The notes below the pieces were generated by a model. That model did no database searches, was not told the origin of the DNA, and was given only the letters and a program-made list of their open reading frames with translations. The position numbers and the translations under genes are program-made. Below are positions 1-25,360 of a stretch of 64,000 bases of DNA, one piece after another (position 1 is the first letter of the stretch; each line of letters opens with the position of its first letter). Source of the DNA: the human T2T-CHM13v2.0 reference genome, Homo sapiens; NCBI RefSeq assembly GCF_009914755.1, contig NC_060927.1, one strand, 5' to 3'.

Positions 1-203
1 TGTGTGCGGTGTTAGGTATGGGCCCCTTAAGGAAATGGAAATCAACCAACCAATGGGACAGACAGACAGACAGACAGACAGAGATTCACTTGCCCAAGTG
101 TTCTGTCCTGTCCTCTGAATCCGCTTTCAAGTCGCAAGACGCTGTGAGCTCCAAGTCCACGCAGAGTCCGCCAAACGCTCCGGCCGCTGATCGGCTCCGC
201 GAA

Positions 204-272
204 GATCTGAGTACAGGCCAGCCAGGGTGGGTTTAAATAGCCTCGGGCGCAGCCTAGCAGCGGAAAGGGCGG
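204..272 (-). promoter_or_regulatory. Pol II core promoter (GC box, TATA, Inr) for a copy beyond the left edge
   Basis: GGGCGG 267-272; TATTTAAA 239-232; Inr TCAGATC with +1 A at 208, placing TATA at -31. Confidence 0.65.
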
Positions 273-736
273 ATCTTCACTCCTCCTTTCCATCAGTCAC
301 CCCCAACTTTCCCAGGCTACACCTCGTAGGAAACTGTTCTCCTGCTTTGATTTCATGCGCCACCTTTGGGACAATCTAAGAACTTACAGGTTTTCTTGGC
401 CAGATTTATTAGGAATTGTATGCACTGAAACACTGAAAACCAACTAGTGGTTCTGTGCTTCCCACGTTGTGGTTTTGACACCAGCAGCATCCTTGCCACA
501 ATCAAACCCCGGAGATCCGCAGATCTGTGTTGTAACAAGACCTCCCCCTGACCCTGAAGCATGGCAGTTGAAGAAGTCTTTCCGTGTAAGCGAAAAGACT
601 TTGAAGAAAAGGTGGAGATATGCGTTGTATAAACATTCTTTTGCTCTGGAACCACGTAGAGACTTGGGAGCCAGTTGGGTGGAGCATTCGTTGGATGAGG
701 GTGCTCGGGTTAGGAATATCAAGGTGTTTCTCCAGA

Positions 737-747
737 TAATCCAATCA
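737..747 (+). promoter_or_regulatory. DUX4-type double-homeodomain motif TAATCCAATCA (one per unit)
   Basis: Exact match to TAAYYYAATCA; also starts at 7051, 13357, 19663, 25825, 32137, 38303, 44609, 50913, 57217, 63516. Confidence 0.5.
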
Positions 748-831
748 TCTAATTAAGATTCCAGTTATGCTCATCTGTTTTAAAATTCCGTTTGGGTAAA
801 TTCTTTTAGTCAGACTGAGAATGGCAAAGCC

Positions 832-1286
832 TCAACCCCAATTTCCAGGGAGGGTGGAGAGCCTCAGGTGGAGTTGATCACCAATAGCCTATGGTTTAAC
901 CCATCATGCCTATAGAATGTGGTCTCCATCAAAACCCAAAAGGACTGGGTTCAGAGAGCTTCTGGATAACACTTCCTGGAAGGTAGTGCGCCCCTCCCCG
1001 CATGGCGGGCCCCACATTTATTTCTGAACTTTGTGCAATGTCCGCTAAAATACAACGGCAAATGTAAGTGATTCCCTGCGTGCTGTGAGCTCTTCCAGCA
1101 AATGAATGCAACTAAATCTGGGAGTGGTGGCAACCTGATTTATAGCCAGTTGCTGAGAAGCACAGGTAAAACAACGTAGGGCTTCCCATTGTTATTGGTG
1201 TGGGAGGCCTGTCTGGCGGGACTCGGCCCTTTGGAATCTAATGCTATGTCCCGGTAGATAGCGTCACCATTGAATTAGAAGACACA
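832..1286 (+). mobile_element. MER21-family LTR remnant
   Basis: Recalled consensus blocks gagttgatcaccaat, aaaacccaaaaggactgggttcagagagcttc, agaagcacaggtaaaacaac, ggtagatag..gaattagaagacac. Confidence 0.75.
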
Positions 1287-1450
1287 CATATGTGGATAAT
1301 AATCTTTCTGGTCATTTACTGCATGTCATATTTACAATATGTAATCAAATTCTTTATCCTGACCTTATGGCACCTGGGTTTAGGACCATGATTTGAACCA
1401 AACGTTGGTCTGTCACTTTCTGAGTTTGAAACTTTATTTTGCCTTTAGCG

Positions 1451-1762
1451 TTTTGCTATTGCTTTTTCGTTTTCTTTTGTTTCGTTTCGTTTCTAAGTTC
1501 TGGGGTATATGTGCAGGATGTGCAGATTTGTTACTAAGGTAAACGTGTGCCATGGTGGTTTGCTGCACCTGTCAACCCGTCACCTAGGTATTAAGCCCAG
1601 CATGCAGTAGCTGTTTTTCTTAACGCTCTGCCTCCCGAAAGGCCCCAGTGTGTGTTGTTCCCCTTCCTGTGTCCATGGGATCTCACTTTTCAGCTCCCAT
1701 TATAAGTGAGAAGGTGGCGTTTGGTTTTCTTTCCCTGGATTAGTTTGCTGACGATAATGACC
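1451..1762 (-). mobile_element. L1PA (older primate, about L1PA8-11) 3' end fragment with decayed poly(A)
   Basis: T-rich tract then taagttctggggtatatgtgcagga..ggtaaacgtgtgccatggtggtttgctgcacc..ctaggtattaagccc..ataagtgagaa, the typical L1PA 3' UTR. Confidence 0.9.
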
Positions 1763-1776
1763 ACACATCACCACTG

Positions 1777-1811
1777 TTTTTGTTTTTTAGTATAAAGAGT
1801 AGTATTTTATT
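1777..1811 (-). terminator. AATAAA poly(A) signal followed by an A-rich tract (one per unit)
   Basis: Minus strand reads AATAAAATACTACTCTTTATACTAAAAAACAAAAA. Confidence 0.45.
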
Positions 1812-2150
1812 GAATAAGATTTGCTCACAGAAAAATAAGTTTAAATCTACAACGAATGCCAGAGCCTACAGCAGAAAGCAATTTTCTCACTTTTCCACAC
1901 ACAATGGTTCCTAATAAGTGAAAAAAAAGCCATAAAATTTCATTCACAAATGTACTACTCTGTCTCAAAACACCTCACGTAATCATGCACTGTACTAAAG
2001 CCATCAGATCAGTTCTTCAGTCAGGTTAAAGAAGTATCCCTCTAATAACTGACTTTTATAATGCTATCAATATCCACTCCCAATCAGTCTGCCATTGTTA
2101 ATGGTGTACAGCATTACTGAATACAACGGAATTGATGACGCCCATATCCA

Positions 2151-2265
2151 CAGACAAACCGTGACTTATGATGGTTTGATTTATGATTTTTCAACGTTAT
2201 GATGGGTTTATTGGAATATTAGATTCGTTTCTGAGTTACACTGGGTTTATGAGTATGCGACCCTA
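2151..2265. mobile_element. MER47/Tigger5-like DNA transposon MITE remnant (one per unit)
   Basis: cagac..gacttatgatggtttgatttatgatttttcaacgttatgatgggtttat resembles MER47 internal repeats; copies start at 8465, 14771, 21077, 27239, 33551, 39717, 46023, 52327, 58618. Confidence 0.6.
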
Positions 2266-2504
2266 CACTCCAGAAACAGCTGTATAAGGAAAAACAGGTG
2301 TACCTAATAAAAATATGCTTAGTGACTTGGGATAAACCAATAGATGTTCACAAGTGATGGAGAGCCGTGAAAGAGAGATAGCGGTAAATAGATACAATAA
2401 CACAATTTTCCTGCACCGGTCGAGGATTTCCCCCAAAAAACGCAGAATGTGGGATGCACCTAAGGCATATGAAAGAGAGAGGGCAGAAGGAGTAAGAGAG
2501 AAAT

Positions 2505-2624
2505 AGGAGGAAGGAAGGAAGGAAGCAAGGAAGAAAGGAAGGAAGGAAAGAAGGAAGGCAGGACGGAAGGAAGGAAGGAAGGAAGGAAGGAAGGAAGGAA
2601 GGAAAGAAGGATGAAAGGAAGGAG
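2505..2624 (+). repeat. (GGAA)n purine microsatellite, variable length (one per unit)
   Basis: Longest pure run 10x here, 8x in most units, 9x in units 5 and 6, 11x in unit 10; copies start at 8819, 15125, 21431, 27593, 33905, 40071, 46377, 52681, 58972. Confidence 0.95.
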
Positions 2625-2678
2625 AAAACACCGGTGTTACTAAAACCCCCCAAAAAATGGTTTCCCCCTGTGGGTAAG

Positions 2679-3020
2679 CCTACAATGTGGATGAATCTTG
2701 AAAATATTGTGCTACGTGTTATGTCAGTCATAGCAGCTCACCTATTGTGCAATTCCGTTTATAGGAAATGTCCACAATATGGAAATCTATGCATATGGGA
2801 TTGATCGCACTAGGAAGTTGCTACCTAGGGCTGAGGGTCAGGGAGAGGGTTTGAGACAGAATGAGGAGTGACTAATGTCTACAGGGTCTTTCTCTGGTCG
2901 GGGCTGATAAGACGTTTTACAATGGATTGCGAATTAAAATTGAATGTGCACAACCACAGGTATACTAAAAGCCACTCAATTCATGACCTTTAATGGGGGA
3001 ATCTTACGTGGCGTAGTCTC
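2679..3020 (+). mobile_element. L1MB-type LINE 3' fragment
   Basis: ctacaatgtggatgaatcttgaaaatattgtgcta..aattccgtttataggaaatgtcca..gagtgactaatg..tatactaaaagccact matches the recalled L1MB 3' UTR. Confidence 0.8.
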
Positions 3021-3220
3021 ATGGAGACCACGGCAGACATAGTGAGAGAGAAAAAGGTGAGTAAATATCTGAAACGGAGGCAGAAACAGAGAGAATGAAA
3101 AGCCCTGTGAATGGAAGGGAGAGCGAAAAGGGAAAATGGTCCTATTTACAAATGACAGATGTGAAACTGGGGTTCACATCAACAGTGTCACTGCCAGGAA
3201 GGAGGGTCATGCTAGCCATG

Positions 3221-6202
3221 TCACCGGTAGTGTGGCCCGCAGGGACGCCGACCTGCTGGAGCGTCGTGCCAGCATGGGCTGTGGCAAGCACGTGGGCCAG
3301 CAGGAGGTTCCCGCTGCACAGCTGTGGGGTGAGGATAGACTGGGTGGTGATATCGGCCATTACAGGGGCCTCTTCTGCTGGCAAGAGTGTGACAGTAGCA
3401 AGTAGATGGACAGGCCTGCGTGTGAGGACGGAATGCAGGAGGGGTTCTTGTGCGCCTGGGTGTGGGGCCCTCACGGGAACCGTGGAGAAATGGCCAGGTA
3501 ACTGCGTCATGTGGGCTAGTAGATTGGCCAGGGCTTCGAACTGAAGGACGATAATGGGGAGTAGCTGTCAGGCCCTGGGAGTGCCTGAGTGTAAGTGGAG
3601 ATGGGTTTGGGGTCACTGAGGGATGCGTGGGAGCCATCCCTGTATAGGTACAGGTCATAGGGAGATAGTCTCGTGAGGCCTGTGAGTGTCTAGGGTTGTC
3701 CTGGGTGCCTGGGGCTGACTGTGGCAGAAATCTGGGGAAGGCTGGAGAGAAGCTGGGAGACCCAGGAGAGTCCCTGAAGGCAGGGGGTGAAGAGGTGAAA
3801 GAAATGGGGGAGGGTTGCAGTAAGGTCCGTGAGTTTGTAGGTGATTCCTGGGTGCGGGAAGCTGACTCCAGGTGAAATCTGGAGATGGTTGGAGAGTAGC
3901 TGAGAGAGACAGAAGAGTCCCTGAGGGCTGGGGGTGAGAACATGAGGGAGACGGGGGAGTAAGTCAGTGAAATTCGTGAGTTCGGTGGTGTATCGTGGGT
4001 GCCTGGAACTGACTCCAGCTGGAATCTAGAGAAGTTTTGAGAGTAGCTGAAGGAGACACAAGAGTCCCTGTGGGCTGAGGGCAAAGACCTGAGAGAGACC
4101 AGGGAGGACCTCAGTGAAGTCTGTGAGTCTGTAGGTGATTCCGGAGTGTGGGAGGCTGACTCCTGCTGAAATCTGGGCGTGGTGGGAGAGTAGCTGGGAC
4201 AGACAGGAGAGTCCCAGGGGGCTGGGGGTGAAGACATGAGAGAGACTGGGGAGTAACTCAGTGAAATTGCTGAGTTGGTTGGTGATACCTGGGTGCCTGG
4301 AACTGACCCCCGCTGAAATCTGGGCATGGTTGGAGAGTAGCTGGGACACACAGGAGAGTCCCTGAGGGCTGGGGGTGAAGACATGAGCGAGACCGGGGAG
4401 TAACTGAGTGAAACTGGTGAGTTTGGTGGTGACTCCGGGGTGCCTGGAACTGACTCCAGCTGAAATGTGGGCGTGGTTGGAGAGTAGCTGGGACAGACAG
4501 GAGAGTCCCTGAGGACTGGTGAAGACATGAGAGAGAGTGGAGAGTAATTGAGTGAAATTGGTGAGTTTGGTGGTGATTCCTGGGTGCCTGGAACTGACTC
4601 CCGCTGAAGTGTGGGCGTGGTTGGAGAGTAGCTGGGACAGACAGGCGAGTCCCTGAGGGTTGGAGATAAAGACGTGCTAGAGACTGAGGAGTAACTGAGT
4701 GAAATTGGTGAGTTTGGTGGTGATTCCGGGGTGCCTGGAACGGACTCCAGCTGAAATGTGGGCGTGGTTGGAGAGTAGCTGGGACAGACGGGAGAGTCCC
4801 TGAGGGATGGTGAAGACATGAGAGAGACTGGGGAGTAACGCAGTGAAATTGGTGAGTTTGGTGGTGATTTCTGGGTGTCTGCAACGGACTCCCGCTGAAG
4901 TGTGGGCGTGCTTGGAGAGTAGCTGGGACAGACAGGCGAGTCCCTGAGGGTTGGAGATAAAGACGTGCTGGAGACTGGGGAGTAACTCAGTGAAAGTGGT
5001 GGGCTTGGTGGTGATCCCAGGGTTCCTGGAACTGACCCGCGCTGAAATGTGGGCGTGGTTGGAGAGTAGCTGGGACAGACTGGAGGGTCCGTAAGGGCTG
5101 GGGGTGAAGACGTGAGAGAGACTGTCGAGGATCTCACTGAGGTCTGTGAGTCTGTAGGTGTTTCTGGGGTGTGGGGTACAGACTCCCGCTGAAATCTGGG
5201 CGTAGTTGGAGAGTAGCTGGGACAGACAGGAGAGTCATGGGTGGCTGGGGGTGAGCTGCTGGATGATGGCAGTAAGAACATATGGTACATTATTGATGAA
5301 TGAGGTGACTGTGAAGAATCTCCAGAGGAGGACACGGGAGAACACAATGACATGAGTGACTGTCCTGCTTGGTTAGGAAAGGGAAACGTAAAGTTGTGGA
5401 ATTCTGTTGATGATGGATGTGAGAGTGGTGAAGCCCTGCGGGATGATGTAGAGGACTTCCACATCCCTGGTGAGGAGCTGCCCCTTGGGTCTGAGTTTCT
5501 GGGAGGGGAGAGGGAGAAGCTGGGTGAGGCAGGCATGAATCTTGAGGAGTCAGGGCTGGGGGACCGCTCATATTCTCCCGAGACCTGTGAGTCTCTGGGG
5601 GACTCCTGGGTGCATGGGGCTGGCTCCCGCAGGAACCTGGGGATGGCTGGAGAGTAACTGGGAGCCACAGGAGGGTCCCTGAGGCCTGGGGGTGAAGAGA
5701 TGCAAGACACAGGGGTGGAGCAGCGTGAGGCTCGTGAGTTTGTAGGTGATTCCTGGGTGTGGGGGGCTGACTCCAGCTGAAATCTGGGGTTGTTTGGAGA
5801 GTAGCTGGGAGACACAGGAGACCCCCCGAGAGCTGGGGGTGAGCTGCTGGGTGATGGCAGTAAGAACATGTGGTATATTATTGATGAACGTGGGGACTCT
5901 GAGGAGTCCTCAGAGGAGGACACGGCAGAGCCCAATGGCTTCATTGATTGCCCATCACGGTGAGGACAGGGAAATGGGAGCTTGTGGGATTCTGGTGATG
6001 ACAGAGGTGAGTGTGGTGAAGCCCTAGGGGATGGTGAATGGTAGTTCCGGATCCCTGGTGAGGAGCTTCCCCTTAAGCCTGAGTTTCTGAGAGGGGAGAG
6101 GGAGAAGCTGGGTGAGGCTCGCATGGACCTTGGGGTGTCCGTGCTGGGGGACCGTTCATAAGAAGAGCCAGACAAGACCCTACTGTTCTTAGGTGCAGAC
6201 AT
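3221..6202 (-). CDS. 993-aa Ser/Pro/Thr-rich disordered protein with Pol II CTD-like heptad repeats, copy 1
   Basis: Uninterrupted 2982-bp ORF; ATG has A at -3 (aatcATG); first AUG after the TATA/Inr; diverged 48/49-aa repeats all stay in frame. Confidence 0.7.
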   Translation of the reverse strand: MSAPKNSRVLSGSSYERSPSTDTPRSMRASPSFSLSPLRNSGLRGSSSPGIRNYHSPSPRASPHSPLSSPESHKLPFPCPHRDGQSMKPLGSAVSSSEDSSESPRSSIIYHMFLLPSPSSSPPALGGSPVSPSYSPNNPRFQLESAPHTQESPTNSRASRCSTPVSCISSPPGLRDPPVAPSYSPAIPRFLREPAPCTQESPRDSQVSGEYERSPSPDSSRFMPASPSFSLSPPRNSDPRGSSSPGMWKSSTSSRRASPLSHPSSTEFHNFTFPFPNQAGQSLMSLCSPVSSSGDSSQSPHSSIMYHMFLLPSSSSSPPATHDSPVCPSYSPTTPRFQRESVPHTPETPTDSQTSVRSSTVSLTSSPPALTDPPVCPSYSPTTPTFQRGSVPGTLGSPPSPPLSLSYSPVSSTSLSPTLRDSPVCPSYSPSTPTLQRESVADTQKSPPNSPISLRYSPVSLMSSPSLRDSPVCPSYSPTTPTFQLESVPGTPESPPNSPISLSYSSVSSTSLSPTLRDSPVCPSYSPTTPTLQRESVPGTQESPPNSPISLNYSPLSLMSSPVLRDSPVCPSYSPTTPTFQLESVPGTPESPPNSPVSLSYSPVSLMSSPPALRDSPVCPSYSPTMPRFQRGSVPGTQVSPTNSAISLSYSPVSLMSSPPAPWDSPVCPSYSPTTPRFQQESASHTPESPTDSQTSLRSSLVSLRSLPSAHRDSCVSFSYSQNFSRFQLESVPGTHDTPPNSRISLTYSPVSLMFSPPALRDSSVSLSYSPTISRFHLESASRTQESPTNSRTLLQPSPISFTSSPPAFRDSPGSPSFSPAFPRFLPQSAPGTQDNPRHSQASRDYLPMTCTYTGMAPTHPSVTPNPSPLTLRHSQGLTATPHYRPSVRSPGQSTSPHDAVTWPFLHGSREGPTPRRTRTPPAFRPHTQACPSTCYCHTLASRRGPCNGRYHHPVYPHPTAVQREPPAGPRACHSPCWHDAPAGRRPCGPHYR
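3670..5255 (-). repeat. 147/144-bp tandem array (ACRO1-like), 11 monomers, inside the CDS
   Basis: Anchor Tyr/Phe codon at 5213, 5066, 4919, 4775, 4628, 4484, 4337, 4190, 4043, 3896, 3749 (spacing 147 or 144); two more monomers near 5580-5860. Confidence 0.9.
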
Positions 6203-6263
6203 GATTAGGAAACCTGCAGCTCCCAGGGGCCCCCACTAATGTTCTAACTCGCAGAAGGAAGGA

Positions 6264-6277
6264 GTGTGTGTGCGTGT

Positions 6278-6309
<32 letters not shown>

Positions 6310-6394
6310 TTGTGGGTGTGCGGTGTGAGGTATGGGCCCCTTAAGGAAATGGAAATCAACCAACCAATGGGACAGACAGACAGACAGACAGACA
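6264..6394 (+). repeat. (TG)n and (GACA)6 microsatellites in the predicted 5' leader (one pair per unit)
   Basis: Imperfect TG/CG run 6264-6327; GACA x6 at 6371-6394. Confidence 0.95.
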
Positions 6395-6517
6395 GAGATT
6401 CACTTGCCCAAGTGTTCTGTCCTGTCCTCTGAATCCGCTTTCAAGTCGCAAGACGCTGTGAGCTCCAAGTCCACGCAGAGTCCGCCAAACGCTCCGGCCG
6501 CTGATCCGCTCCGCGAA

Positions 6518-6586
6518 GATCTGAGTACAGGCCAGCCAGGGTGGGTTTAAATAGCCTCGGGCGCAGCCTAGCAGCGGAAAGGGCGG
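6518..6586 (-). promoter_or_regulatory. Core promoter, copy 1 (predicted TSS 6522)
   Basis: TATTTAAA 6553-6546, Inr, GC box. Confidence 0.65.
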
Positions 6587-7145
6587 ATCTTCACTCCTCC
6601 TTTCCATCAGTCACCCCCAACTTTCCCAGGCTACACCTCGTAGGAAACTGTTCTCCTGCTTTGATTTCATGCGCCACCTTTGGGACAATCTAAGAACTTA
6701 CAGGTTTTCTTGGCCAGATTTATTAGGAATTGTATGCACTGAAACACTGAAAACCAACTAGTGGTTCTGTGCTTCCCACGTTGTGGTTTTGACACCAGCA
6801 GCATCCTTGCCACAATCAAACCCCGGAGATCCGCAGATCTGTGTTGTAACAAGACCTCCCCCTGACCCTGAAGCATGGCAGTTGAAGAAGTCTTTCCGTG
6901 TAAGCGAAAAGACTTTGAAGAAAAGGTGGAGATATGCGTTGTATAAACATTCTTTTGCTCTGGAACCACGTAGAGACTTGGGAGCCAGTTGGGTGGAGCA
7001 TTCGTTGGATGAGGGTGCTCGGGTTAGGAATATCAAGGTGTTTCTCCAGATAATCCAATCATCTAATTAAGATTCCAGTTATGCTCATCTGTTTTAAAAT
7101 TCCGTTTGGGTAAATTCTTTTAGTCAGACTGAGAATGGCAAAGCC

Positions 7146-7600
7146 TCAACCCCAATTTCCAGGGAGGGTGGAGAGCCTCAGGTGGAGTTGATCACCAATA
7201 GCCTATGGTTTAACCCATCATGCCTATAGAATGAGGTCTCCATCAAAACCCAAAAGGACTGGGTTCAGAGAGCTTCTGGATAACACTTCCTGGAAGGTAG
7301 TGCGCCCCTCCCCGCATGGCGGGCCCCACATTTATTTCTGAACTTTGTGCAATGTCCGCTAAAATACAACGGCAAATGTAAGTGATTCCCTGCGTGCTGT
7401 GAGCTCTTCCAGCAAATGAATGCAACTAAATCTGGGAGTGGTGGCAACCTGATTTATAGCCAGTTGCTGAGAAGCACAGGTAAAACAACGTAGGGCTTCC
7501 CATTGTTATTGGTGTGGGAGGCCTGTCTGGCGGGACTCGGCCCTTTGGAATCTAATGCTATGTCCCGGTAGATAGCGTCACCATTGAATTAGAAGACACA
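7146..7600 (+). mobile_element. MER21-family LTR remnant
   Basis: Copy of 832-1286. Confidence 0.75.
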
Positions 7601-7764
7601 CATATGTGGAGAATAATCTTTCTGGTCATTTACTGCATGTCATATTTACAATATGTAATCAAATTCTTTATCCTGACCTTATGGCACCTGGGTTTAGGAC
7701 CATGATTTGAACCAAACGTTGGTCTGTCACTTTCTGAGTTTGAAACTTTATTTTGCCTTTAGCG

Positions 7765-8076
7765 TTTTGCTATTGCTTTTTCGTTTTCTTTTGTTTCGTT
7801 TCGTTTCTAAGTTCTGGGGTATATGTGCAGGATGTGCAGATTTGTTACTAAGGTAAACGTGTGCCATGGTGGTTTGCTGCACCTGTCAACCCGTCACCTA
7901 GGTATTAAGCCCAGCATGCAGTAGCTGTTTTTCTTAACGCTCTGCCTCCCGAAAGGCCCCAGTGTGTGTTGTTCCCCTTCCTGTGTCCATGGGATCTCAC
8001 TTTTCAGCTCCCATTATAAGTGAGAAGGTGGCGTTTGGTTTTCTTTCCCTGGATTAGTTTGCTGACGATAATGACC
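7765..8076 (-). mobile_element. L1PA 3' fragment
   Basis: Copy of 1451-1762. Confidence 0.9.
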
Positions 8077-8984
8077 ACACATCACCACTGTTTTTGTTTT
8101 TTAGTATAAAGAGTAGTATTTTATTGAATAAGATTTGCTCACAGAAAAATAAGTTTAAATCTACAACGAATGCCAGAGCCTACAGCAGAAAGCAATTTTC
8201 TCACTTTTCCACACACAATGGTTCCTAATAAGTGAAAAAAAAGCCATAAAATTTCATTCACAAATGTACTACTCTGTCTCAAAACACCTCACGTAATCAT
8301 GCACTGTACTAAAGCCATCAGATCAGTTCTTCAGTCAGGTTAAAGAAGTATCCCTCTAATAACTGACTTTTATAATGCTATCAATATCCACTCCCAATCA
8401 GTCTGCCATTGTTAATGGTGTACAGCATTACTGAATACAACGGAATTGATGACGCCCATATCCACAGACAAACCGTGACTTATGATGGTTTGATTTATGA
8501 TTTTTCAACGTTATGATGGGTTTATTGGAATATTAGATTCGTTTCTGAGTTACACTGGGTTTATGAGTATGCGACCCTACACTCCAGAAACAGCTGTATA
8601 AGGAAAAACAGGTGTACCTAATAAAAATATGCTTAGTGACTTGGGATAAACCAATAGATGTTCACAAGTGATGGAGAGCCGTGAAAGAGAGATAGCGGTA
8701 AATAGTTACAATAACACAATTTTCCTGCACCTGTCGAGGATTTCCCCCAAAAAACGCAGAATGTGGGATGCACCTAAGGCATATGAAAGAGAGAGGGCAG
8801 AAGGAGTAAGAGAGAAATAGGAGGAAGGAAGGAAGGAAGCAAGGAAGAAAGGAAGGAAGGAAAGAAGGAAGGTAGGACGGAAGGAAGGAAGGAAGGAAGG
8901 AAGGAAGGAAAGAAGGATGAAAGGAAGGAGAAAACACCGGTGTTACTAAAACCCCCCAAAAAATGGTTTCCCCCTGTGGGTAAG

Positions 8985-9326
8985 CCTACAATGTGGATGA
9001 ATCTTGAAAATATTGTGCTACGTGTTATGTCAGTCATAGCAGCTCACCTATTGTGCAATTCCGTTTATAGGAAATGTCCACAATATGGAAATCTATGCAT
9101 ATGGGATTGATCGCACTAGGTAGTTGCTACCTGGGGCTGAGGGTCAGGGAGAGGGTTTGAGACAGAATGAGGAGTGACTAATGTCTACAGGGTCTTTCTC
9201 TGGTCGGGGCTGATAAGACGTTTTACAATGGATTGCGAATTAAAATTGAATGTGCACAACCACAGGTATACTAAAAGCCACTCAATTCATGACCTTTAAT
9301 GGGGGAATCTTACGTGGCGTAGTCTC
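8985..9326 (+). mobile_element. L1MB 3' fragment
   Basis: Copy of 2679-3020. Confidence 0.8.
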
Positions 9327-9526
9327 ATGGAGACCACGGCAGACATAGTGAGAGAGAAAAAGGTGAGTAAATATCTGAAACGGAGGCAGAAACAGAGAGA
9401 ATGAAAAGCCCTGTGAATGGAAGGGAGAGCGAAAAGGGAAAATGGTCCTATTTACAAATGACAGATGTGAAACTGGGGTTCACATCAACAGTGTCACTGC
9501 CAGGAAGGAGGGTCATGCTAGCCATG

Positions 9527-12508
9527 TCACCGGTAGTGTGGCCCGCAGGGACGCCGACCTGCTGGAGCGTCGTGCCAGCATGGGCTGTGGCAAGCACGTG
9601 GGCCAGCAGGAGGTTCCCGCTGCACAGCTGTGGGGTGAGGATAGACTGGGTGGTGATATCGGCCATTACAGGGGCCTCTTCTGCTGGCAAGAGTGTGACA
9701 GTAGCAAGTAGATGGACAGGCCTGCGTGTGAGGACGGAATGCAGGAGGGGTTCTTGTGCGCCTGGGTGTGGGGCCCTCACGGGAACCGTGGAGAAATGGC
9801 CAGGTAACTGCGTCATGTGGGCTAGTAGATTGGCCAGGGCTTCGAACTGAAGGACGATAATGGGGAGTAGCTGTCAGGCCCTGGGAGTGCCTGAGTGTAA
9901 GTGGAGATGGGTTTGGGGTCACTGAGGGATGTGTGGGAGCCATCCCTGTATAGGTACAGGTCATAGGGAGATAGTCTCGTGAGGCCTGTGAGTGTCTAGG
10001 GTTGTCCTGGGTGCCTGGGGCTGACTGTGGCAGAAATCTGGGGAAGGCTGGAGAGAAGCTGGGAGACCCAGGAGAGTCCCTGAAGGCAGGGGGTGAAGAG
10101 GTGAAAGAAATGGGGGAGGGTTGCAGTAAGGTCCGTGAGTTTGTAGGTGATTCCTGGGTGCGGGAAGCTGACTCCAGGTGAAATCTGGAGATGGTTGGAG
10201 AGTAGCTGAGAGAGACAGAAGAGTCCCTGAGGGCTGGGGGTGAGAACATGAGGGAGACGGGGGAGTAAGTCAGTGAAATTCGTGAGTTCGGTGGTGTATC
10301 GTGGGTGCCTGGAACTGACTCCAGCTGGAATCTAGAGAAGTTTTGAGAGTAGCTGAAGGAGACACAAGAGTCCCTGTGGGCTGAGGGCAAAGACCTGAGA
10401 GAGACCAGGGAGGACCTCAGTGAAGTCTGTGAGTCTGTAGGTGATTCCGGAGTGTGGGAGGCTGACTCCCGCTGAAATCTGGGCGTGGTGGGAGAGTAGC
10501 TGGGACAGACAGGAGAGTCCCAGGGGGCTGGGGGTGAAGACATGAGAGAGACTGGGGAGTAACTCAGTGAAATTGCTGAGTTGGTTGGTGATACCTGGGT
10601 GCCTGGAACTGACCCCCGCTGAAATCTGGGCATGGTTGGAGAGTAGCTGGGACACACAGGAGAGTCCCTGAGGGCTGGGGGTGAAGACATGAGCGAGACC
10701 GGGGAGTAACTGAGTGAAACTGGTGAGTTTGGTGGTGACTCCGGGGTGCCTGGAACTGACTCCAGCTGAAATGTGGGCGTGGTTGGAGAGTAGCTGGGAC
10801 AGACAGGAGAGTCCCTGAGGACTGGTGAAGACATGAGAGAGAGTGGAGAGTAATTGAGTGAAATTGGTGAGTTTGGTGGTGATTCCTGGGTGCCTGGAAC
10901 TGACTCCCGCTGAAGTGTGGGCGTGGTTGGAGAGTAGCTGGGACACACAGGAGAGTCCCTGAGGGTTGGAGATAAAGACGTGCTAGAGACTGAGGAGTAA
11001 CTGAGTGAAATTGGTGAGTTTGGTGGTGATTCCGGGGTGCCTGGAACGGACTCCAGCTGAAATGTGGGCGTGGTTGGAGAGTAGCTGGGACAGACGGGAG
11101 AGTCCCTGAGGGATGGTGAAGACATGAGAGAGACTGGGGAGTAACGCAGTGAAATTGGTGAGTTTGGTGGTGATTTCTGGGTGTCTGCAACGGACTCCCG
11201 CTGAAGTGTGGGCGTGCTTGGAGAGTAGCTGGGACAGACAGGCGAGTCCCTGAGGGTTGGAGATAAAGACGTGCTGGAGACTGGGGAGTAACTCAGTGAA
11301 AGTGGTGGGCTTGGTGGTGATCCCAGGGTTCCTGGAACTGACCCGCGCTGAAATGTGGGCGTGGTTGGAGAGTAGCTGGGACAGACTGGAGGGTCCGTAA
11401 GGGCTGGGGGTGAAGACGTGAGAGAGACTGGCGAGGATCTCACTGAGGTCTGTGAGTTTGTAGGTGTTTCTGGGGTGTGGGGTACAGACTCCCGCTGAAA
11501 TCTGGGCGTAGTTGGAGAGTAGCTGGGACAGACAGGAGAGTCATGGGTGGCTGGGGGTGAGCTGCTGGATGATGGCAGTAAGAACATATGGTACATTATT
11601 GATGAATGAGGTGACTGTGAAGAATCTCCAGAGGAGGACACGGGAGAACACAATGACATGAGTGACTGTCCTGCTTGGTTAGGAAAGGGAAACGTAAAGT
11701 TGTGGAATTCTGTTGATGATGGATGTGAGAGTGGTGAAGCCCTGCGGGATGATGTAGAGGACTTCCACATCCCTGGTGAGGAGCTGCCCCTTGGGTCTGA
11801 GTTTCTGGGAGGGGAGAGGGAGAAGCTGGGTGAGGCAGGCATGAATCTTGAGGAGTCAGGGCTGGGGGACCGCTCATATTCTCCCGAGACCTGTGAGTCT
11901 CTGGGGGACTCCTGGGTGCATGGGGCTGACTCCCGCAGGAACCTGGGGATGGCTGGAGAGTAACTGGGAGCCACAGGAGGGTCCCTGAGGCCTGGGGGTG
12001 AAGAGATGCAAGACACAGGGGTGGAGCAGCGTGAGGCTCGTGAGTTTGTAGGTGATTCCTGGGTGTGGGGGGCTGACTCCAGCTGAAATCTGGGGTTGTT
12101 TGGAGAGTAGCTGGGAGACACAGGAGACCCCCCGAGAGCTGGGGGTGAGCTGCTGGGTGATGGCAGTAAGAACATGTGGTATATTATTGATGAACGTGGG
12201 GACTCTGAGGAGTCCTCAGAGGAGGACACGGCAGAGCCCAATGGCTTCATTGATTGCCCATCACGGTGAGGACAGGGAAATGGGAGCTTGTGGGATTCTG
12301 GTGATGACAGAGGTGAGTGTGGTGAAGCCCTAGGGGATGGTGAATGGTAGTTCCGGATCCCTGGTGAGGAGCTTCCCCTTAAGCCTGAGTTTCTGAGAGG
12401 GGAGAGGGAGAAGCTGGGTGAGGCTCGCATGGACCTTGGGGTGTCCGTGCTGGGGGACCGTTCATAAGAAGAGCCAGACAAGACCCTACTGTTCTTAGGT
12501 GCAGACAT
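9527..12508 (-). CDS. 993-aa CTD-like repeat protein, copy 2
   Basis: Intact ORF, near-identical to copy 1. Confidence 0.7.
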   Translation of the reverse strand: MSAPKNSRVLSGSSYERSPSTDTPRSMRASPSFSLSPLRNSGLRGSSSPGIRNYHSPSPRASPHSPLSSPESHKLPFPCPHRDGQSMKPLGSAVSSSEDSSESPRSSIIYHMFLLPSPSSSPPALGGSPVSPSYSPNNPRFQLESAPHTQESPTNSRASRCSTPVSCISSPPGLRDPPVAPSYSPAIPRFLRESAPCTQESPRDSQVSGEYERSPSPDSSRFMPASPSFSLSPPRNSDPRGSSSPGMWKSSTSSRRASPLSHPSSTEFHNFTFPFPNQAGQSLMSLCSPVSSSGDSSQSPHSSIMYHMFLLPSSSSSPPATHDSPVCPSYSPTTPRFQRESVPHTPETPTNSQTSVRSSPVSLTSSPPALTDPPVCPSYSPTTPTFQRGSVPGTLGSPPSPPLSLSYSPVSSTSLSPTLRDSPVCPSYSPSTPTLQRESVADTQKSPPNSPISLRYSPVSLMSSPSLRDSPVCPSYSPTTPTFQLESVPGTPESPPNSPISLSYSSVSSTSLSPTLRDSPVCPSYSPTTPTLQRESVPGTQESPPNSPISLNYSPLSLMSSPVLRDSPVCPSYSPTTPTFQLESVPGTPESPPNSPVSLSYSPVSLMSSPPALRDSPVCPSYSPTMPRFQRGSVPGTQVSPTNSAISLSYSPVSLMSSPPAPWDSPVCPSYSPTTPRFQRESASHTPESPTDSQTSLRSSLVSLRSLPSAHRDSCVSFSYSQNFSRFQLESVPGTHDTPPNSRISLTYSPVSLMFSPPALRDSSVSLSYSPTISRFHLESASRTQESPTNSRTLLQPSPISFTSSPPAFRDSPGSPSFSPAFPRFLPQSAPGTQDNPRHSQASRDYLPMTCTYTGMAPTHPSVTPNPSPLTLRHSQGLTATPHYRPSVRSPGQSTSPHDAVTWPFLHGSREGPTPRRTRTPPAFRPHTQACPSTCYCHTLASRRGPCNGRYHHPVYPHPTAVQREPPAGPRACHSPCWHDAPAGRRPCGPHYR
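9976..11561 (-). repeat. ACRO1-like 147/144-bp array, 11 monomers
   Basis: As unit 1. Confidence 0.9.
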
Positions 12509-12823
12509 GATTAGGAAACCTGCAGCTCCCAGGGGCCCCCACTAATGTTCTAACTCGCAGAAGGAAGGAGTGTGTGTGCGTGTGTGAGTGTGCGTGTGTG
12601 TGTGTGTGTGTGTGTTTGCGTGTGTGCGGTGTGAGGTATGGGCCCCTTAAGGAAATGGAAATCAACCAACCAATGGGACAGACAGACAGACAGACAGACA
12701 GAGATTCACTTGCCCAAGTGTTCTGTCCTGTCCTCTGAATCCGCTTCCAAGTCGCAAGACGCTGTGAGCTCCAAGTCCACGCAGAGTCCGCCAAACGCTG
12801 CGGCCGCTGATCCGCTCCGCGAA

Positions 12824-12892
12824 GATCTGAGTACAGGCCAGCCAGGGTGGGTTTAAATAGCCTCGGGCGCAGCCTAGCAGCGGAAAGGGCGG
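12824..12892 (-). promoter_or_regulatory. Core promoter, copy 2 (predicted TSS 12828)
   Basis: TATA 12859-12852; GC box GGGCGGAGC. Confidence 0.65.
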
Positions 12893-13451
12893 AGCTTCAC
12901 TCCTCCTTTCCATCAGTCACCCCCAACTTTCCCAGGCTACACCTCGTAGGAAACTGTTCTCCTGCTTTGATTTCATGCGCCACCTTTGGGACAATCTAAG
13001 AACTTACAGGTTTTCTTGGCCAGATTTATTAGGAATTGTATGCACTGAAACACTGAAAACCAACTAGTGGTTCTGTGCTTCCCACGTTGTGGTTTTGACA
13101 CCAGCAGCATCCTTGCCACAATCAAACCCCGGAGATCCGCAGATCTGTGTTGTAACAAGACCTCCCCCTGACCCTGAAGCATGGCAGTTGAAGAAGTCTT
13201 TCCGTGTAAGCGAAAAGACTTTGAAGAAAAGGTGGAGATATGCGTTGTATAAACATTCTTTTGCTCTGGAACCACGTAGAGACTTGGGAGCCAGTTGGGT
13301 GGAGCATTCGTTGGATGAGGGTGCTCGGGTTAGGAATATCAAGGTGTTTCTCCAGATAATCCAATCATCTAATTAAGATTCCAGTTATGCTCATCTGTTT
13401 TAAAATTCCGTTTGGGTAAATTCTTTTAGTCAGACTGAGAATGGCAAACCC

Positions 13452-13906
13452 TCAACCCCAATTTCCAGGGAGGGTGGAGAGCCTCAGGTGGAGTTGATCA
13501 CCAATAGCCTATGGTTTAACCCATCATGCCTATAGAATGAGGTCTCCATCAAAACCCAAAAGGACTGGGTTCAGAGAGCTTCTGGATAACACTTCCTGGA
13601 AGGTAGTGCACCCCTCCCCGCATGGCGGGCCCCACATTTATTTCTGAACTTTGTGCAATGTCCGCTAAAATACAACGGCAAATGTAAGTGTTTCCCTGCG
13701 TGCTGTGAGCTCTTCCAGCAAATGAATGCAACTAAATCTGGGAGTGGTGGCAACCTGAATTATAGCCAGTTGCTGAGAAGCACAGGTAAAACAACGTAGG
13801 GCTTCCCATTGTTATTGGTGTGGGAGGCCTGTCTGGCGGGACTCGGCCCTTTGGAATCTAATGCTATGTCCCGGTAGATAGCGTCACCATTGAATTAGAA
13901 GACACA
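13452..13906 (+). mobile_element. MER21-family LTR remnant
   Basis: Copy of 832-1286. Confidence 0.75.
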
Positions 13907-14070
13907 CATATGTGGAGAATAATCTTTCTGGTCATTTACTGCATGTCATATTTACAATATGTAATCAAATTCTTTATCCTGACCTTATGGCACCTGGGTT
14001 TAGGACCATGATTTGAACCAAACGTTGGTCTGTCACTTTCTGAGTTTGAAACTTTATTTTGCCTTTAGCG

Positions 14071-14382
14071 TTTTGCTATTGCTTTTTCGTTTTCTTTTGT
14101 TTCGTTTCGTTTCTAAGTTCTGGGGTATATGTGCAGGATGTGCAGATTTGTTACTAAGGTAAACGTGTGCCATGGTGGTTTGCTGCACCTGTCAACCCGT
14201 CACCTAGGTATTAAGCCCAGCATGCAGTAGCTGTTTTTCTTAACGCTCTGCCTCCCGAAAGGCCCCAGTGTGTGTTGTTCCCCTTCCTGTGTCCATGGGA
14301 TCTCACTTTTCAGCTCCCATTATAAGTGAGAAGGTGGCGTTTGGTTTTCTTTCCCTGGATTAGTTTGCTGACGATAATGACC
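14071..14382 (-). mobile_element. L1PA 3' fragment
   Basis: Copy of 1451-1762. Confidence 0.9.
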
Positions 14383-15290
14383 ACACATCACCACTGTTTT
14401 TGTTTTTTAGTATAAAGAGTAGTATTTTATTGAATAAGATTTGCTCACAGAAAAATAAGCTTAAATCTACAATGAATGCCAGACCCTACAGCAGAAAGCA
14501 ATTTTCTCACTTTTCCACACACAATGGTTCCTACTAAGTGAAAAAAAAGCCATAAAATTTCATTCACAAATGTACTACTCTGTCTCAAAACATCTCACGT
14601 AATCATGCACTGTACTAAAGCCATCAGATCAGTTCTTCAGTCAGGTTAAAGAAGTATCCCTCTAATAACTGACTTTTATAATGCTATCAATATCCACTCC
14701 CAATCAGTCTGCCATTGTTAATGGTGTACAGCATTACTGAATACAACGGAATTGATGACGCCCATATCCACAGACAAACCGTGACTTATGATGGTTTGAT
14801 TTATGATTTTTCAACGTTATGATGGGTTTATTGGAATATTAGATTCGTTTCTGAGTTACACTGGGTTTATGAGTATGCGACCCTACACTCCAGAAACAGC
14901 TGTATAAGGAAAAACAGGTGTACCTAATAAAAATATGCTTAGTGACTTGGGATAAACCAATAGATGTTCACAAGTGATGGAGAGCCGTGAAAGAGAGATA
15001 GCGGTAAATAGTTACAATAACACAATTTTCCTGCACCTGTCGAGGATTTCCCCCAAAAAACGCAGAATGTGGGATGCACCTAAGGCATATGAAAGAGAGA
15101 GGGCAGAAGGAGTAAGAGAGAAATAGGAGGAAGGAAGGAAGGAAGCAAGGAAGAAAGGAAGGAAGGAAAGAAGGAAGGTAGGACGGAAGGAAGGAAGGAA
15201 GGAAGGAAGGAAGGAAAGAAGGATGAAAGGAAGGAGAAAACACCGGTGTTACTAAAACCCCCCAAAAAATGGTTTTCCCCTGTGGGTAAG

Positions 15291-15632
15291 CCTACAATGT
15301 GGATGAATCTTGAAAATATTTTGCTACGTGATATGTCAGTCATAGCAGCTCACCTATTGTGCAATTCCGTTTATAGGAAATGTCCACAATATGGAAATCT
15401 ATGCATATGGGATTGATCGCACTAGGTAGTTGCTACCTGGGGCTGAGGGTCAGGGAGAGGGTTTGAGACAGAATGAGGAGTGACTAATGTCTACAGGGTC
15501 TTTCTCTGGTCAGGGGTGATAAGACGTTTTACAATGGATTGCGAATTAAAATTGAATGTGCACAACCACAGGTATACTAAAAGCCACTCAATTCATGACC
15601 TTTAATGGGGGAATCTTACGTGGCGTAGTCTC
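15291..15632 (+). mobile_element. L1MB 3' fragment
   Basis: Copy of 2679-3020. Confidence 0.8.
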
Positions 15633-15832
15633 ATGGAGACCACGGCAGACATAGTGAGAGAGAAAAAGGTGAGTAAATATCTGAAACGGAGGCAGAAACA
15701 GAGAGAATGAAAAGCCCTGTGAATGGAAGGGAGAGCGAAAAGGGAAAATGGTCCTATTTACAAATGACAGATGTGAAACTGGGGTTCACATCAACAGTGT
15801 CACTGCCAGGAAGGAGGGTCATGCTAGCCATG

Positions 15833-18814: not shown

Positions 18815-18889
18815 GATTAGGAAACCTGCAGCTCCCAGGGGCCCCCACTAATGTTCTAACTCGCAGAAGGAAGGAGTGTGTGTGCGTGT

Positions 18890-18921
<32 letters not shown>

Positions 18922-19129
18922 TTGTGTGTGTGCGGTGTGAGGTATGGGCCCCTTAAGGAAATGGAAATCAACCAACCAATGGGACAGACAGACAGACAGA
19001 CAGACAGAGATTCACTTGCCCAAGTGTTCTGTCCTGTCCTCTGAATCCGCTTTCAAGTCGCAAGACGCTGTGAGCTCCAAGTCCACGCAGAGTCCGCCAA
19101 ACGCTCCGGCCGCTGATCCGCTCCGCGAA

Positions 19130-19198
19130 GATCTGAGTACAGGCCAGCCAGGGTGGGTTTAAATAGCCTCGGGCGCAGCCTAGCAGCGGAAAGGGCGG
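19130..19198 (-). promoter_or_regulatory. Core promoter, copy 3 (predicted TSS 19134)
   Basis: Same motifs. Confidence 0.65.
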
Positions 19199-19757
19199 AG
19201 CTTCACTCCTCCTTTCCATCAGTCACCCCCAACTTTCCCAGGCTACACCTCGTAGGAAACTGTTCTCCTGCTTTGATTTCATGCGCCACCTTTGGGACAA
19301 TCTAAGAACTTACAGGTTTTCTTGGCCAGATTTATTAGGAATTGTATGCACTGAAACACTGAAAACCAACTAGTGGTTCTGTGCTTCCCACGTTGTGGTT
19401 TTGACACCAGCAGCATCCTTGCCACAATCAAACCCCGGAGATCCGCAGATCTGTGTTGTAACAAGACCTCCCCCTGACCCTGAAACATGGCAGTTGAAGA
19501 AGTCTTTCCGTGTAAGCGAAAAGACTTTGAAGAAAAGGTGGAGATATGCGTTGTATAAACATTCTTTTGCTCTGGAACCACGTAGAGACTTGGGAGCCAG
19601 TTGGGTGGAGCATTCGTTGGATGAGGGTGCTCGGGTTAGGAATATCAAGGTGTTTCTCCAGATAATCCAATCATCTAATTAAGATTCCAGTTATGCTCAT
19701 CTGTTTTAAAATTCCGTTTGGGTAAATTCTTTTAGTCAGACTGAGAATGGCAAAGCC

Positions 19758-20212
19758 TCAACCCCAATTTCCAGGGAGGGTGGAGAGCCTCAGGTGGAGT
19801 TGATCACCAATAGCCTATGGTTTAACCCATCATGCCTATAGAATGTGGTCTCCATCAAAACCCAAAAGGACTGGGTTCAGAGAGCTTCTGGATAACACTT
19901 CCTGGAAGGTAGTGCGCCCCTCCCCGCATGGCGGGCCCCACATTTATTTCTGAACTTTGTGCAATGTCCGCTAAAATACAACGGCAAATGTAAGTGATTC
20001 CCTGCGTGCTGTGAGCTCTTCCAGCAAATGAATGCAACTAAATCTGGGAGTGGTGGCAACCTGATTTATAGCCAGTTGCTGAGAAGCACAGGTAAAACAA
20101 CGTAGGGCTTCCCATTGTTATTGGTGTGGGAGGCCTGTCTGGCGGGACTCGGCCCTTTGGAATCTAATGCTATGTCCCGGTAGATAGCGTCACCATTGAA
20201 TTAGAAGACACA
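19758..20212 (+). mobile_element. MER21-family LTR remnant
   Basis: Copy of 832-1286. Confidence 0.75.
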
Positions 20213-20376
20213 CATATGTGGAGAATAATCTTTCTGGTCATTTACTGCATGTCATATTTACAATATGTAATCAAATTCTTTATCCTGACCTTATGGCACC
20301 TGGGTTTAGGACCATGATTTGAACCAAACGTTGGTCTGTCACTTTCTGAGTTTGAAACTTTATTTTGCCTTTAGCG

Positions 20377-20688
20377 TTTTGCTATTGCTTTTTCGTTTTC
20401 TTTTGTTTCGTTTCGTTTCTAAGTTCTGGGGTATATGTGCAGGATGTGCAGATTTGTTACTAAGGTAAACGTGTGCCATGGTGGTTTGCTGCACCTGTCA
20501 ACCCGTCACCTAGGTATTAAGCCCAGCATGCAGTAGCTGTTTTTCTTAACGCTCTGCCTCCCGAAAGGCCCCAGTGTGTGTTGTTCCCCTTCCTGTGTCC
20601 ATGGGATCTCACTTTTCAGCTCCCATTATAAGTGAGAAGGTGGCGTTTGGTTTTCTTTCCCTGGATTAGTTTGCTGACGATAATGACC
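20377..20688 (-). mobile_element. L1PA 3' fragment
   Basis: Copy of 1451-1762. Confidence 0.9.
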
Positions 20689-21938: not shown

Positions 21939-22138
21939 ATGGAGACCACGGCAGACATAGTGAGAGAGAAAAAGGTGAGTAAATATCTGAAACGGAGGCA
22001 GAAACAGAGAGAATGAAAAGCCCTGTGAATGGAAGGGAGAGCGAAAAGGGAAAATGGTCCTATTTACAAATGACAGATGTGAAACTGGGGTTCACATCAA
22101 CAGTGTCACTGCCAGGAAGGAGGGTCATGCTAGCCATG

Positions 22139-25291: not shown

Positions 25292-25360
25292 GATCTGAGT
25301 ACAGGCCAGCCAGGGTGGGTTTAAATAGCCTCGGGCGCAGCCTAGCAGCGGAAAGGGCGG
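25292..25360 (-). promoter_or_regulatory. Core promoter, copy 4 (predicted TSS 25296)
   Basis: Same motifs. Confidence 0.65.

What the first reader, a model, noticed from the sequence alone, without database searches (positions are those of the whole stretch)
7051..7061. Perfect DUX4-type site about 530 bp upstream of every predicted TSS
Seen: TAATCCAATCA, overlapped by a second near-match (TCATCTAATTA), invariant in all 11 promoter regions and in sequence I could not assign to a TE. Known: DUX4 binds TAAYYYAATCA-like sites and activates cleavage-stage multicopy genes (ZSCAN4, PRAMEF, TRIM43, MBD3L) and repeats. Inference: the array may be switched on at zygotic genome activation, in FSHD muscle or in DUX4-positive cancers, which would put a CTD mimic at the time Pol II is first deployed. 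A single 11-mer can occur by chance, and invariance among young copies is weak evidence.
Basis: partly seen in the sequence, partly recalled or inferred. Interest (0 to 1): 0.7.

Follow-up and report, generated by a model that had tools for sequence, protein, structure and literature searches.

The report
DUX4 switch on a satellite-hidden gene
Every unit of this 6.3-kb human 'satellite' (ACRO) carries a binding site for the early-embryo activator DUX4 in front of a predicted promoter and a ~1,000-codon open reading frame; published data place DUX4 on the same site in two related copies, so the satellite is likely a hidden multi-copy gene switched on as the embryo's genome wakes up, though its protein is still only predicted.

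Summary
The 11-mer is real: one per unit, 11 of 11, 529 bp upstream of a predicted TATA/initiator start. Its invariance means little (86.5% of 11-column windows are invariant), and the 'second site' is 2 mismatches off. The array is the known ACRO composite; the exact 27-mer context occurs 171 times in the genome. New here: two DUX4 ChIP-seq peaks in Young 2013 (hg19 chr2) map onto the homologous site of two ACRO paralogs. The spacing is 5,905 bp in both assemblies, and a non-ACRO anchor peak fits within 10 bp. The same study shows ACRO1 RNA up 15.8-fold while the ACRO1 repeat itself is unbound (1.1x, 0 peaks). The downstream ORF is open for at least 900 codons in 132 of 150 best copies. It has a colinear marmoset homolog and a rabbit homolog. 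Against: it is a single site, lost in some copies; local induction was not significant; dN/dS is at least 1; no start site or protein is shown; there are no true CTD heptads; the chr3 copies are untested. DUX4 induction of ACRO1 and its CTD likeness are already in print. The site, the promoter and the gene reading were not found in my searches.

The parts
1..64000 (.). Tandem array of the ACRO composite (ACRE), unit 6,162-6,314 bp: 10 whole units plus parts
   Evidence: the same 25-mer context occurs 203 times (<=3 mismatches), listed rows on C3, C4, C13, C14, C15, C21, C22; structure matches Boots 2020
7051..7061 (+). DUX4 site TAATCCAATCA (CC flavour); other copies at 737, 13357, 19663, 25825, 32137, 38303, 44609, 50913, 57217, 63516
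   Evidence: this 11-mer is bound and activates a reporter in Zhang 2016; the homologous site lies under DUX4 ChIP-seq peaks in two chr2 paralogs
7059..7069 (+). Overlapping TCATCTAATTA: 2 mismatches from the consensus, probably not a second DUX4 site
   Evidence: half-sites and TAATTA are inactive in Zhang 2016
6546..6553 (-). TATA-like box TATTTAAA, first base 31 nt upstream of the predicted start
   Evidence: sequence; kept in 21 of 22 aligned copies, including those at 84.5% identity
6519..6524 (-). Predicted initiator TCAGAT, +1 at 6522, in a CpG-rich patch (6420-6600: GC 61%, CpG o/e 0.91)
   Evidence: inferred from spacing to the TATA box; no 5'-end data found
6244..6403 (-). Predicted 160-nt intron in the 5' leader, holding the (GACA)n and (GT)n microsatellites
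   Evidence: donor AAG|GTGAAT-like site at 6403 and pyrimidine tract plus AG at 6244; no ATG between the predicted start and the ORF; prediction only
3221..6202 (-). 993-aa Ser/Pro/Thr-rich ORF (993 aa in 8 of 10 units, 945 aa in 2 of 10)
   Evidence: S 23%, P 18%; no Pfam family; marmoset, colobus and rabbit homologs
3699..5254 (-). Long ACRO1 array (147-bp period, 10.6 copies), read in frame as ~49-aa repeats, most with CPSYSPTTP
5605..5843 (-). Short ACRO1 array (about two units) in the N-terminal part of the ORF
   Evidence: cross-matches; Boots 2020 describes a 256-bp second array
3335..3412 (-). Non-repetitive Cys/His-rich C-terminal block (aa 931-956) shared with distant homologs
2207..2994 (-). 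Candidate polyadenylation signals: ATTAAA at 2994, AATAAA at 2212
   Evidence: prediction only
7150..7480 (.). Probable MER21B LTR fragment just beyond the site; the bounds are approximate
   Evidence: MER21B is a listed part of ACRO; placing it here is from recall and was not tested

Best explanation
The 11-mer is a DUX4 site (DUX4 sits on its homolog in two chr2 copies) and likely works as the upstream switch of a predicted TATA promoter, which would drive a multi-copy gene hidden in the ACRO macrosatellite. When DUX4 appears (zygote to cleavage stage, FSHD muscle), it binds about 530 bp upstream of the start. It would recruit its co-activators (p300/CBP and MED15 are named) and fire a minus-strand transcript. 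That transcript runs through the ACRO1 repeats and encodes a ~950-1,100-aa disordered Ser/Pro/Thr protein. One site per unit is weak; the output would come from about 170 copies. Shown: the site, its fixed spacing, binding at paralogs, family-level induction, open frames and homologs. Inferred: the start site and strand, dependence on the site, activity of these chr3 copies, and translation.
For: (1) Young 2013 Table S1 has hg19 chr2 peaks with best motifs at 133,041,212, 133,047,117 and 133,070,340. T2T chr2 has the ACRO-context motif at 132,719,993 and 132,725,898: spacing 5,905 against 5,905. A non-ACRO TAACCTAATCA at 132,749,111 lies 10 bp off the third peak over 29 kb. The second and third stretches were fetched at places predicted from the first. 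The two loci are ACRO paralogs at 90.6% and 84.8% identity. (2) The chr4 peak pair has spacing 12,434, against 12,435 between two T2T chr4 copies with the identical CC motif; there is no independent anchor. (3) Table S2: ACRO1 has 0 peaks and 1.1x ChIP reads but 15.8x RNA, so the switch lies outside the 147-bp repeat. (4) Both TAATCCAATCA and TAATTCAATCA are bound and activate reporters. (5) The site is old: 2 of the 3 most diverged copies keep a perfect consensus through a change at a Y position, and the third is 1 mismatch off. (6) ACRO1 RNA peaks at the 4-cell stage and is cited as DUX4-induced. (7) ORF: 132 of the 150 best copies have an open frame of 900 codons or more. Against chr14 and chr22 copies the ORF has 70 and 75 substitutions with 0 frameshifts and 0 stops. 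The flanks (about 1,960 bp) have 9 and 4 non-triplet indels, and about 3 stops would be expected per comparison. The marmoset protein is colinear, with the same start and nearly the same end. The rabbit protein shares the non-repeat C-terminal block (71.2 bits; best of 200 shuffles 24.3).
Against: Overexpressed DUX4 gave 63,795 peaks, and most bound sites are not activated. At the four mapped peaks local RNA was 'not expressed', Inf (FDR 0.62), 'not expressed' and log2FC 3.21 (FDR 0.97); these are unique reads, which are blind to near-identical copies. Single sites are about 20-fold weaker than pairs. The site is lost in 5 of 22 aligned copies and is no better conserved than its surroundings. 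dN/dS between human paralogs is 1.3-2.3 on few changes, so amino acids show no purifying selection. The marmoset model has a ~60-aa stretch that reads like the alternative frame. ACRO1 RNA blocks its own elongation in reporters, and no stable transcript was seen in HeLa. No 5' end was found at the predicted places in Tohonen 2015 supplements. The 15.8x value is not strand- or locus-resolved. A third chr4 peak (0 motifs, 7,376 bp further on) could not be placed. The two ORF comparisons are not independent, and some flank indels lie in microsatellites.
Confidence: 0.68

Rival explanations
1. DUX4 binds the site and ACRO is transcribed, but the product is a non-coding or self-attenuating RNA. The ORF stays open only because the strand is C-rich and the arrays are homogenised.
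For: dN/dS >= 1; Pol II-binding aptamers in ACRO1 that stop elongation in cis; only 4.2% of single changes create a stop; no protein evidence found
Against: No frameshift in the ORF against 13 non-triplet indels in the flanks over two comparisons; colinear marmoset ORF; rabbit and compact homologs keep the Cys/His block
Confidence: 0.3
2. The site is an incidental DUX4 landing spot. ACRO1 RNA rises indirectly, through general opening of heterochromatin, read-through, or a DUX4 target factor. A paired-like K50 homeodomain protein that reads the TAATCC core is one candidate (preference recalled, not tested).
For: Single site; no significant local induction at the mapped peaks; ACRO1 is among the least methylated repeats in FSHD cells; DUX4 knockdown in embryos changes little; site lost in some arrays
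Against: Fixed position upstream of a conserved TATA/initiator in copies as diverged as 84.5%; peaks centred on this site and not on ACRO1; TAATCC is absent from the chr2 copies that are bound (TAATTC)
Confidence: 0.2
3. The family is DUX4-responsive, but these chr3 copies, in the centromeric region (location recalled), stay silent; expression comes from acrocentric arrays.
For: No gene is annotated in the window (hub note); no locus-resolved data for chr3 were found
Against: The chr3 promoter stretch is 99.1-99.4% identical to the sampled chr15/21/22 copies, and all 10 window ORFs are intact
Confidence: 0.3

Closest known systems
ACRO composite / ACRE with the ACRO1 147-bp satellite (Boots 2020 PMC7714431; Hoyt bioRxiv 10.1101/2021.07.12.451456; PMC12767296)
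   Same: 6-kb unit, long and short 147-bp arrays, acrocentric plus chr3/chr4 distribution, CTD-like in-silico translation, 4-cell expression
   Different: In the parts I read, these papers treat ACRO as a primate-specific satellite or self-silencing RNA. They mention no full ORF, promoter, DUX4 site or non-primate homolog.
DUX4-activated multicopy cleavage-stage genes (ZSCAN4, PRAMEF, TRIM43/49, RFPL4A, MBD3L; list partly recalled)
   Same: Tandem multicopy array, upstream DUX4 consensus, fast-evolving coding sequence, embryo and FSHD expression
   Different: One site rather than a cluster; far higher copy number (171 exact site contexts); located on acrocentric arms; the coding sequence is itself a tandem repeat; protein not shown
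HSATII satellite (Young 2013)
   Same: A satellite induced by DUX4
   Different: HSATII is bound in the repeat (30 peaks) and induced 857x; ACRO1 is unbound (0 peaks) and induced 15.8x, consistent with a separate promoter
RNA polymerase II RPB1 C-terminal domain
   Same: Ser/Pro/Thr/Tyr-rich, YSPT motifs; similarity exceeds shuffles (125 bits against a best of 74.7)
   Different: No YSPTSPS heptad, motifs about 49 aa apart, no polymerase domains; the database names 'RPB1' on homologs are automatic

Membership tests
ACRO composite (ACRE) | 147-bp array of 1.3-2.4 kb plus a ~256-bp second array in a ~6-kb unit | tested here: met
   1.4-1.55-kb arrays of period 147, short array of about 240 bp, unit 6.16-6.31 kb; definition
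ACRO composite (ACRE) | Arrays on the five acrocentrics, chr3 and chr4 | tested here: met
ACRO composite (ACRE) | Match to the Dfam ACRO1 consensus; L1PA10, MER21B and L1MB8 pieces | not testable with these tools
   No repeat library on hand; the Boots oligonucleotide table showed no ACRO primer
Direct DUX4 target | Consensus TAAT[T/C][T/C]AATCA site near the start | tested here: met
Direct DUX4 target | ChIP occupancy of the site | tested here: met
   Met for two chr2 paralogs and likely for two chr4 copies; the chr3 copies themselves could not be tested
Direct DUX4 target | RNA induced by DUX4 | tested here: inconclusive
   Family level 15.8x; locus level not significant; strand unknown
Direct DUX4 target | Two or more clustered sites for strong activation | tested here: not met
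   One site per unit with <=1 mismatch; the overlapping candidate has 2 mismatches
Direct DUX4 target | Induction depends on the site | not testable with these tools
   Needs a reporter or genome editing
Pol II CTD | Tandem YSPTSPS heptads | tested here: not met
   0 heptads; YSPT 8 times
Pol II CTD | Attached to RPB1 catalytic domains | tested here: not met
   No Pfam family at E<=1
Pol II CTD | Substrate of CTD kinases and ligand of CTD readers | not testable with these tools
   80 SP and 19 TP dipeptides make proline-directed phosphorylation plausible; inference only
Protein-coding gene family | Reading frame kept across paralogs and species | tested here: met
Protein-coding gene family | Purifying selection on amino acids (dN/dS < 1) | tested here: not met
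   1.3-2.3 among human paralogs, 25-39 changes per pair; no cross-species DNA on hand

The most novel reading that the evidence does not exclude
ACRO is not a satellite but the most amplified DUX4-target gene in the human genome. An old mammalian gene grew an internal YSPT repeat, spread to about 170 copies on the rDNA-bearing arms and centromeric regions, and makes a disordered ~1,000-aa phospho-sponge at genome activation. The protein would titrate CTD kinases or readers, or seed condensates, while its own RNA limits the burst by stalling Pol II.
Probability: 0.25. Interest if true: 0.92.

Novelty: new member of a known kind. Interest (0 to 1): 0.72.

Why it matters
ACRO is described as the repeat most specific to great-ape acrocentric arms after rDNA, with an unexplained 4-cell expression peak. 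A bound DUX4 site, a candidate promoter and a conserved ORF give that peak a mechanism. They turn a 'satellite' into a testable gene family that short-read analyses on older references would largely miss. This bears on embryonic genome activation and on FSHD and DUX4-positive tumours (biomarker or antigen, if translated). It also bears on the origin of ACRO1: a rabbit homolog argues against 'primate-specific' and against derivation from the POLR2A mRNA.

Tried and rejected
Invariance as evidence: rejected. Second overlapping site: rejected. Special conservation of the motif among human paralogs: not seen. An independent hg19-to-T2T anchor for chr4 (the HSAT5 peak): not found in C4:49,174,001-49,193,000, so the chr4 match rests on spacing alone. 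Start-site data: the NET-CAGE table of Vuoristo 2022 was too large to read; six coordinate prefixes gave no hit in 7 Tohonen 2015 files. LOC124906202 as an ACRO copy: no match for C3:95,742,000-95,748,500. Pfam: nothing. Atlas with the marmoset protein: best feature hit 0.89, a lead only, a 993-aa 'putative extensin-like' chordate cluster of 70; model pTM 0.30 and no structural match above TM 0.39. A 'VNTR_148 composite' label from recall: 0 papers. Hendrickson 2017 and Mayor 2015 are not held. No fold or complex job was run, because the protein looks disordered. Searches for prior description: ACRO1+DUX4 (6 papers listed); ACRO1+satellite+147+open reading frame (4); ACRO1+embryo+8-cell (4); ACRO1+chr4 (3); extensin-like+CHM13+acrocentric (0 occurrences of extensin-like in the 20 listed); ACRO+composite+T2T+DUX4 (4); DUX4+TAATCCAATCA (3); RPB1-like+genome activation (0). 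One search was too loose to be informative.

Full report
Observation. TAATCCAATCA is at 7051-7061 (+) and occurs 11 times, once per unit. With one mismatch allowed to TAAYYYAATCA no other site appears, and the overlapping TCATCTAATTA is 2 mismatches off. The units are 6,162-6,314 bp long and 96.2% invariant by column; 5,455 of 6,306 11-column windows are invariant. The 11 hits are therefore one event. In a single unit the consensus arises in 30 of 1,500 shuffles; in the 601 bp upstream of the TATA box it arises in 47 of 20,000. That is suggestive, but the motif was chosen after the fact.

Anatomy, on the minus strand. The site is followed about 500 bp on by TATTTAAA (6553-6546), and a TCAGAT initiator-like element has its A at 6522, 31 nt from the first base of the box. 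The spacing is identical in all 11 copies. Next come a predicted 160-nt leader intron, no upstream ATG, and an ORF at 6202-3221: 993 aa in 8 of 10 units and 945 aa in 2. A 147-bp tandem array lies inside the ORF. Start, intron and polyA sites are predictions.

Identity. The layout matches the ACRO composite as described by Boots 2020: 147-bp arrays of 1.3-2.4 kb and 256 bp in a 6-kb unit, with a CTD-like in-silico translation (I read parts 1-3 of 5 of the text and parts 2-3 of the supplement). It also matches the acrocentric preprint (passages) and Hoyt et al. (one passage). In this genome the 25-mer around the site has 203 matches at up to 3 mismatches, against 1 for the control. The exact 27-mer has 171 matches; with the 11-mer left free there are 184, at least 2 of them unrelated. 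I could not compare with the Dfam consensus.

Age of the site. I aligned 22 promoter copies, chosen partly for divergence. Fifteen have TAATCCAATCA; two (chr2 at 90.6%, chr13 at 84.8%) have TAATTCAATCA; one (chr14 at 84.5%) has TAATTCAATCT; two chr15 copies have TAATTCCGTCA; two chr4 copies have CGATCCAATCA. The TATA box is kept in 21 of 22. The site is old, but it is not better conserved than its surroundings (6 variable columns of 11, typical 3).

Does DUX4 bind it? Zhang 2016 (passages) shows that all four TAAT[T/C][T/C]AATCA flavours are bound and activate reporters. Single sites are about 20-fold weaker than pairs, and half-sites are inactive. Young 2013 Table S1 is in hg19; I searched rows by coordinate prefix and read one part, and the stored file is cut. 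It lists chr2 peaks with best motifs at 133,041,212 (height 141), 133,047,117 (121) and 133,070,340 (298, MLT1A). I assumed the first was the chr2 ACRO paralog at T2T 132,719,993 and fetched the two predicted places. A second ACRO paralog (84.8% identity) has TAATTCAATCA at 132,725,898, a spacing of 5,905 in both assemblies. A non-ACRO TAACCTAATCA lies at 132,749,111, 10 bp from the prediction. That anchor fixes the offset independently of the repeat period, so DUX4 occupies the homologous site in two paralogs. On chr4 a pair of peaks 12,434 bp apart fits two T2T copies with the identical CC motif 12,435 bp apart. I found no anchor there, and a third peak could not be placed.

Is ACRO induced? 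Young Table S2 (four rows seen) gives ACRO1 0 peaks, 1.1x ChIP reads and 15.8x RNA. HSATII has 30 peaks and 857x; MER21B has 1.6x and 2.3x. Induction without binding in the repeat is what an upstream site would give. Three papers state that DUX4 induces ACRO1 transcripts (passages); the primary paper, Hendrickson 2017, was not held. ACRO1 peaks at the 4-cell stage (passages). Against this: at the four mapped peaks local RNA was not expressed or not significant (FDR 0.62 and 0.97); the experiment gave 63,795 peaks; strand and start are unknown; no 5' end turned up in the tables I could search.

Is the ORF a gene? Of the 150 best genome matches to aa 1-249, 132 lie in an open frame of 900 codons or more and 18 do not. 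Against one chr14 and one chr22 copy the ORF has 70 and 75 substitutions, no stop and no frameshift; one whole 147-bp unit differs. About 1,960 bp of flank has 9 and 4 non-triplet indels; the comparisons are not independent and some flank indels are in microsatellites. A marmoset protein of 832 aa is colinear from the same start to near the end: 71% over aa 1-330, with one ~60-aa stretch that reads like the other frame. A colobus fragment is also named. A rabbit protein (P0042, named) shares the non-repeat C-terminal Cys/His block (E 7e-19; 71.2 bits against a shuffled best of 24.3). An unnamed 355-aa record, P0039, has the N-terminal block, one YSP unit and the C-terminal block, without the array. 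Many of the other 89 hits look like human-type fragments or frameshifted reads and were not counted as evidence. Against: dN/dS among human paralogs is 1.3-2.3 on 25-39 changes per pair; there is no Pfam domain; no protein evidence was found; ACRO1 RNA blocks elongation in cis and is not stable in HeLa.

CTD likeness. The repeat region scores above shuffles against a real CTD tail (125 bits against a best of 74.7 in 200). But it has no YSPTSPS, and its 8 YSPT motifs are about 49 aa apart. It is CTD-like in composition and local motif, not a CTD. The compact homolog suggests the array grew from one internal unit of an older gene rather than from POLR2A mRNA, as Boots proposed; this is inference.

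Verdict. The most likely reading (0.68) is a real DUX4 site acting as the switch of a TATA promoter for the ACRO transcript. I put translation into a functional protein at about 0.45 and a CTD-decoy role at about 0.15-0.25. Already in print: ACRO, its DUX4 induction, the 4-cell peak and the in-silico CTD likeness. Automatic database models of the protein also exist ('RPB1-like', 'extensin-like'). Not found in the searches listed: the cis site with ChIP support, the promoter, the full-length ORF in more than 130 copies, and a non-primate homolog. The library lacks most subscription papers, so absence is not proven. Rating: new member of a known kind (DUX4-activated multicopy gene arrays), interest 0.72.

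Noticed in passing
P0089 (598 aa, unnamed record): It has an ACRO-like N-terminus (library E 4e-4; E 5e-6 against P0039). Its last 66 aa hit the 3.3-kb-spaced array at C4:193.43-193.47 Mb and many acrocentric copies (52-60% identity, best E 1.9e-5); I take these to be D4Z4/DUX4-like from recall. It could be a true chimera carrying a DUX-type activation tail, or a gene model fusing neighbours. It hints that ACRO-like and DUX genes are linked in some genome. One sequence only.
   Followed up: partly
P0042 (rabbit), P0039, P0074, P0027; window 3335-3412: A Cys/His-rich C-terminal block and an N-terminal I[IM]YHMF block are shared by distant homologs, against the statement that ACRO has no non-primate homolog. 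The block may bind metal; untested.
   Followed up: partly
L046, L047 (C15:~91,000 and ~126,200); L034, L035 (C4:49,248,400 and 49,254,550): Natural copies that have lost the DUX4 consensus (TAATTCCGTCA; CGATCCAATCA): built-in controls for site dependence
   Followed up: partly
L054, C2:132,726,430; window 7581-7591: The chr2 paralog has a second near-site TAATTGAATTA 532 bp beyond the main one; the window copy is 2 mismatches off there. Older copies may have had two sites.
   Followed up: no
C3:95,756,424-95,783,291, just before the window: Four chr3 units have the frame cut at 462 aa, and the unit just after the window at 658 aa; all 10 units inside the window are intact
   Followed up: no
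L031, L040 (C4:49,174,001-49,193,000): Degenerate ~3-kb duplications, each with TGATTAAATCA-type near-palindromic motifs, upstream of the chr4 ACRO cluster
   Followed up: no
window 22139-24976 and 34617-37454: Two units lack one 144-bp repeat (945 aa), in frame; across the genome the open frames differ in steps of about 48-49 codons
   Followed up: partly
P0001, P0002, P0097: Near-identical ACRO proteins sit in sequence collections under other labels, one named as a Plasmodium hypothetical protein; likely human contamination
   Followed up: no
L053 (C3:95,742,000-95,748,500): The neighbouring pseudogene LOC124906202 is not an ACRO unit (no match)
   Followed up: yes
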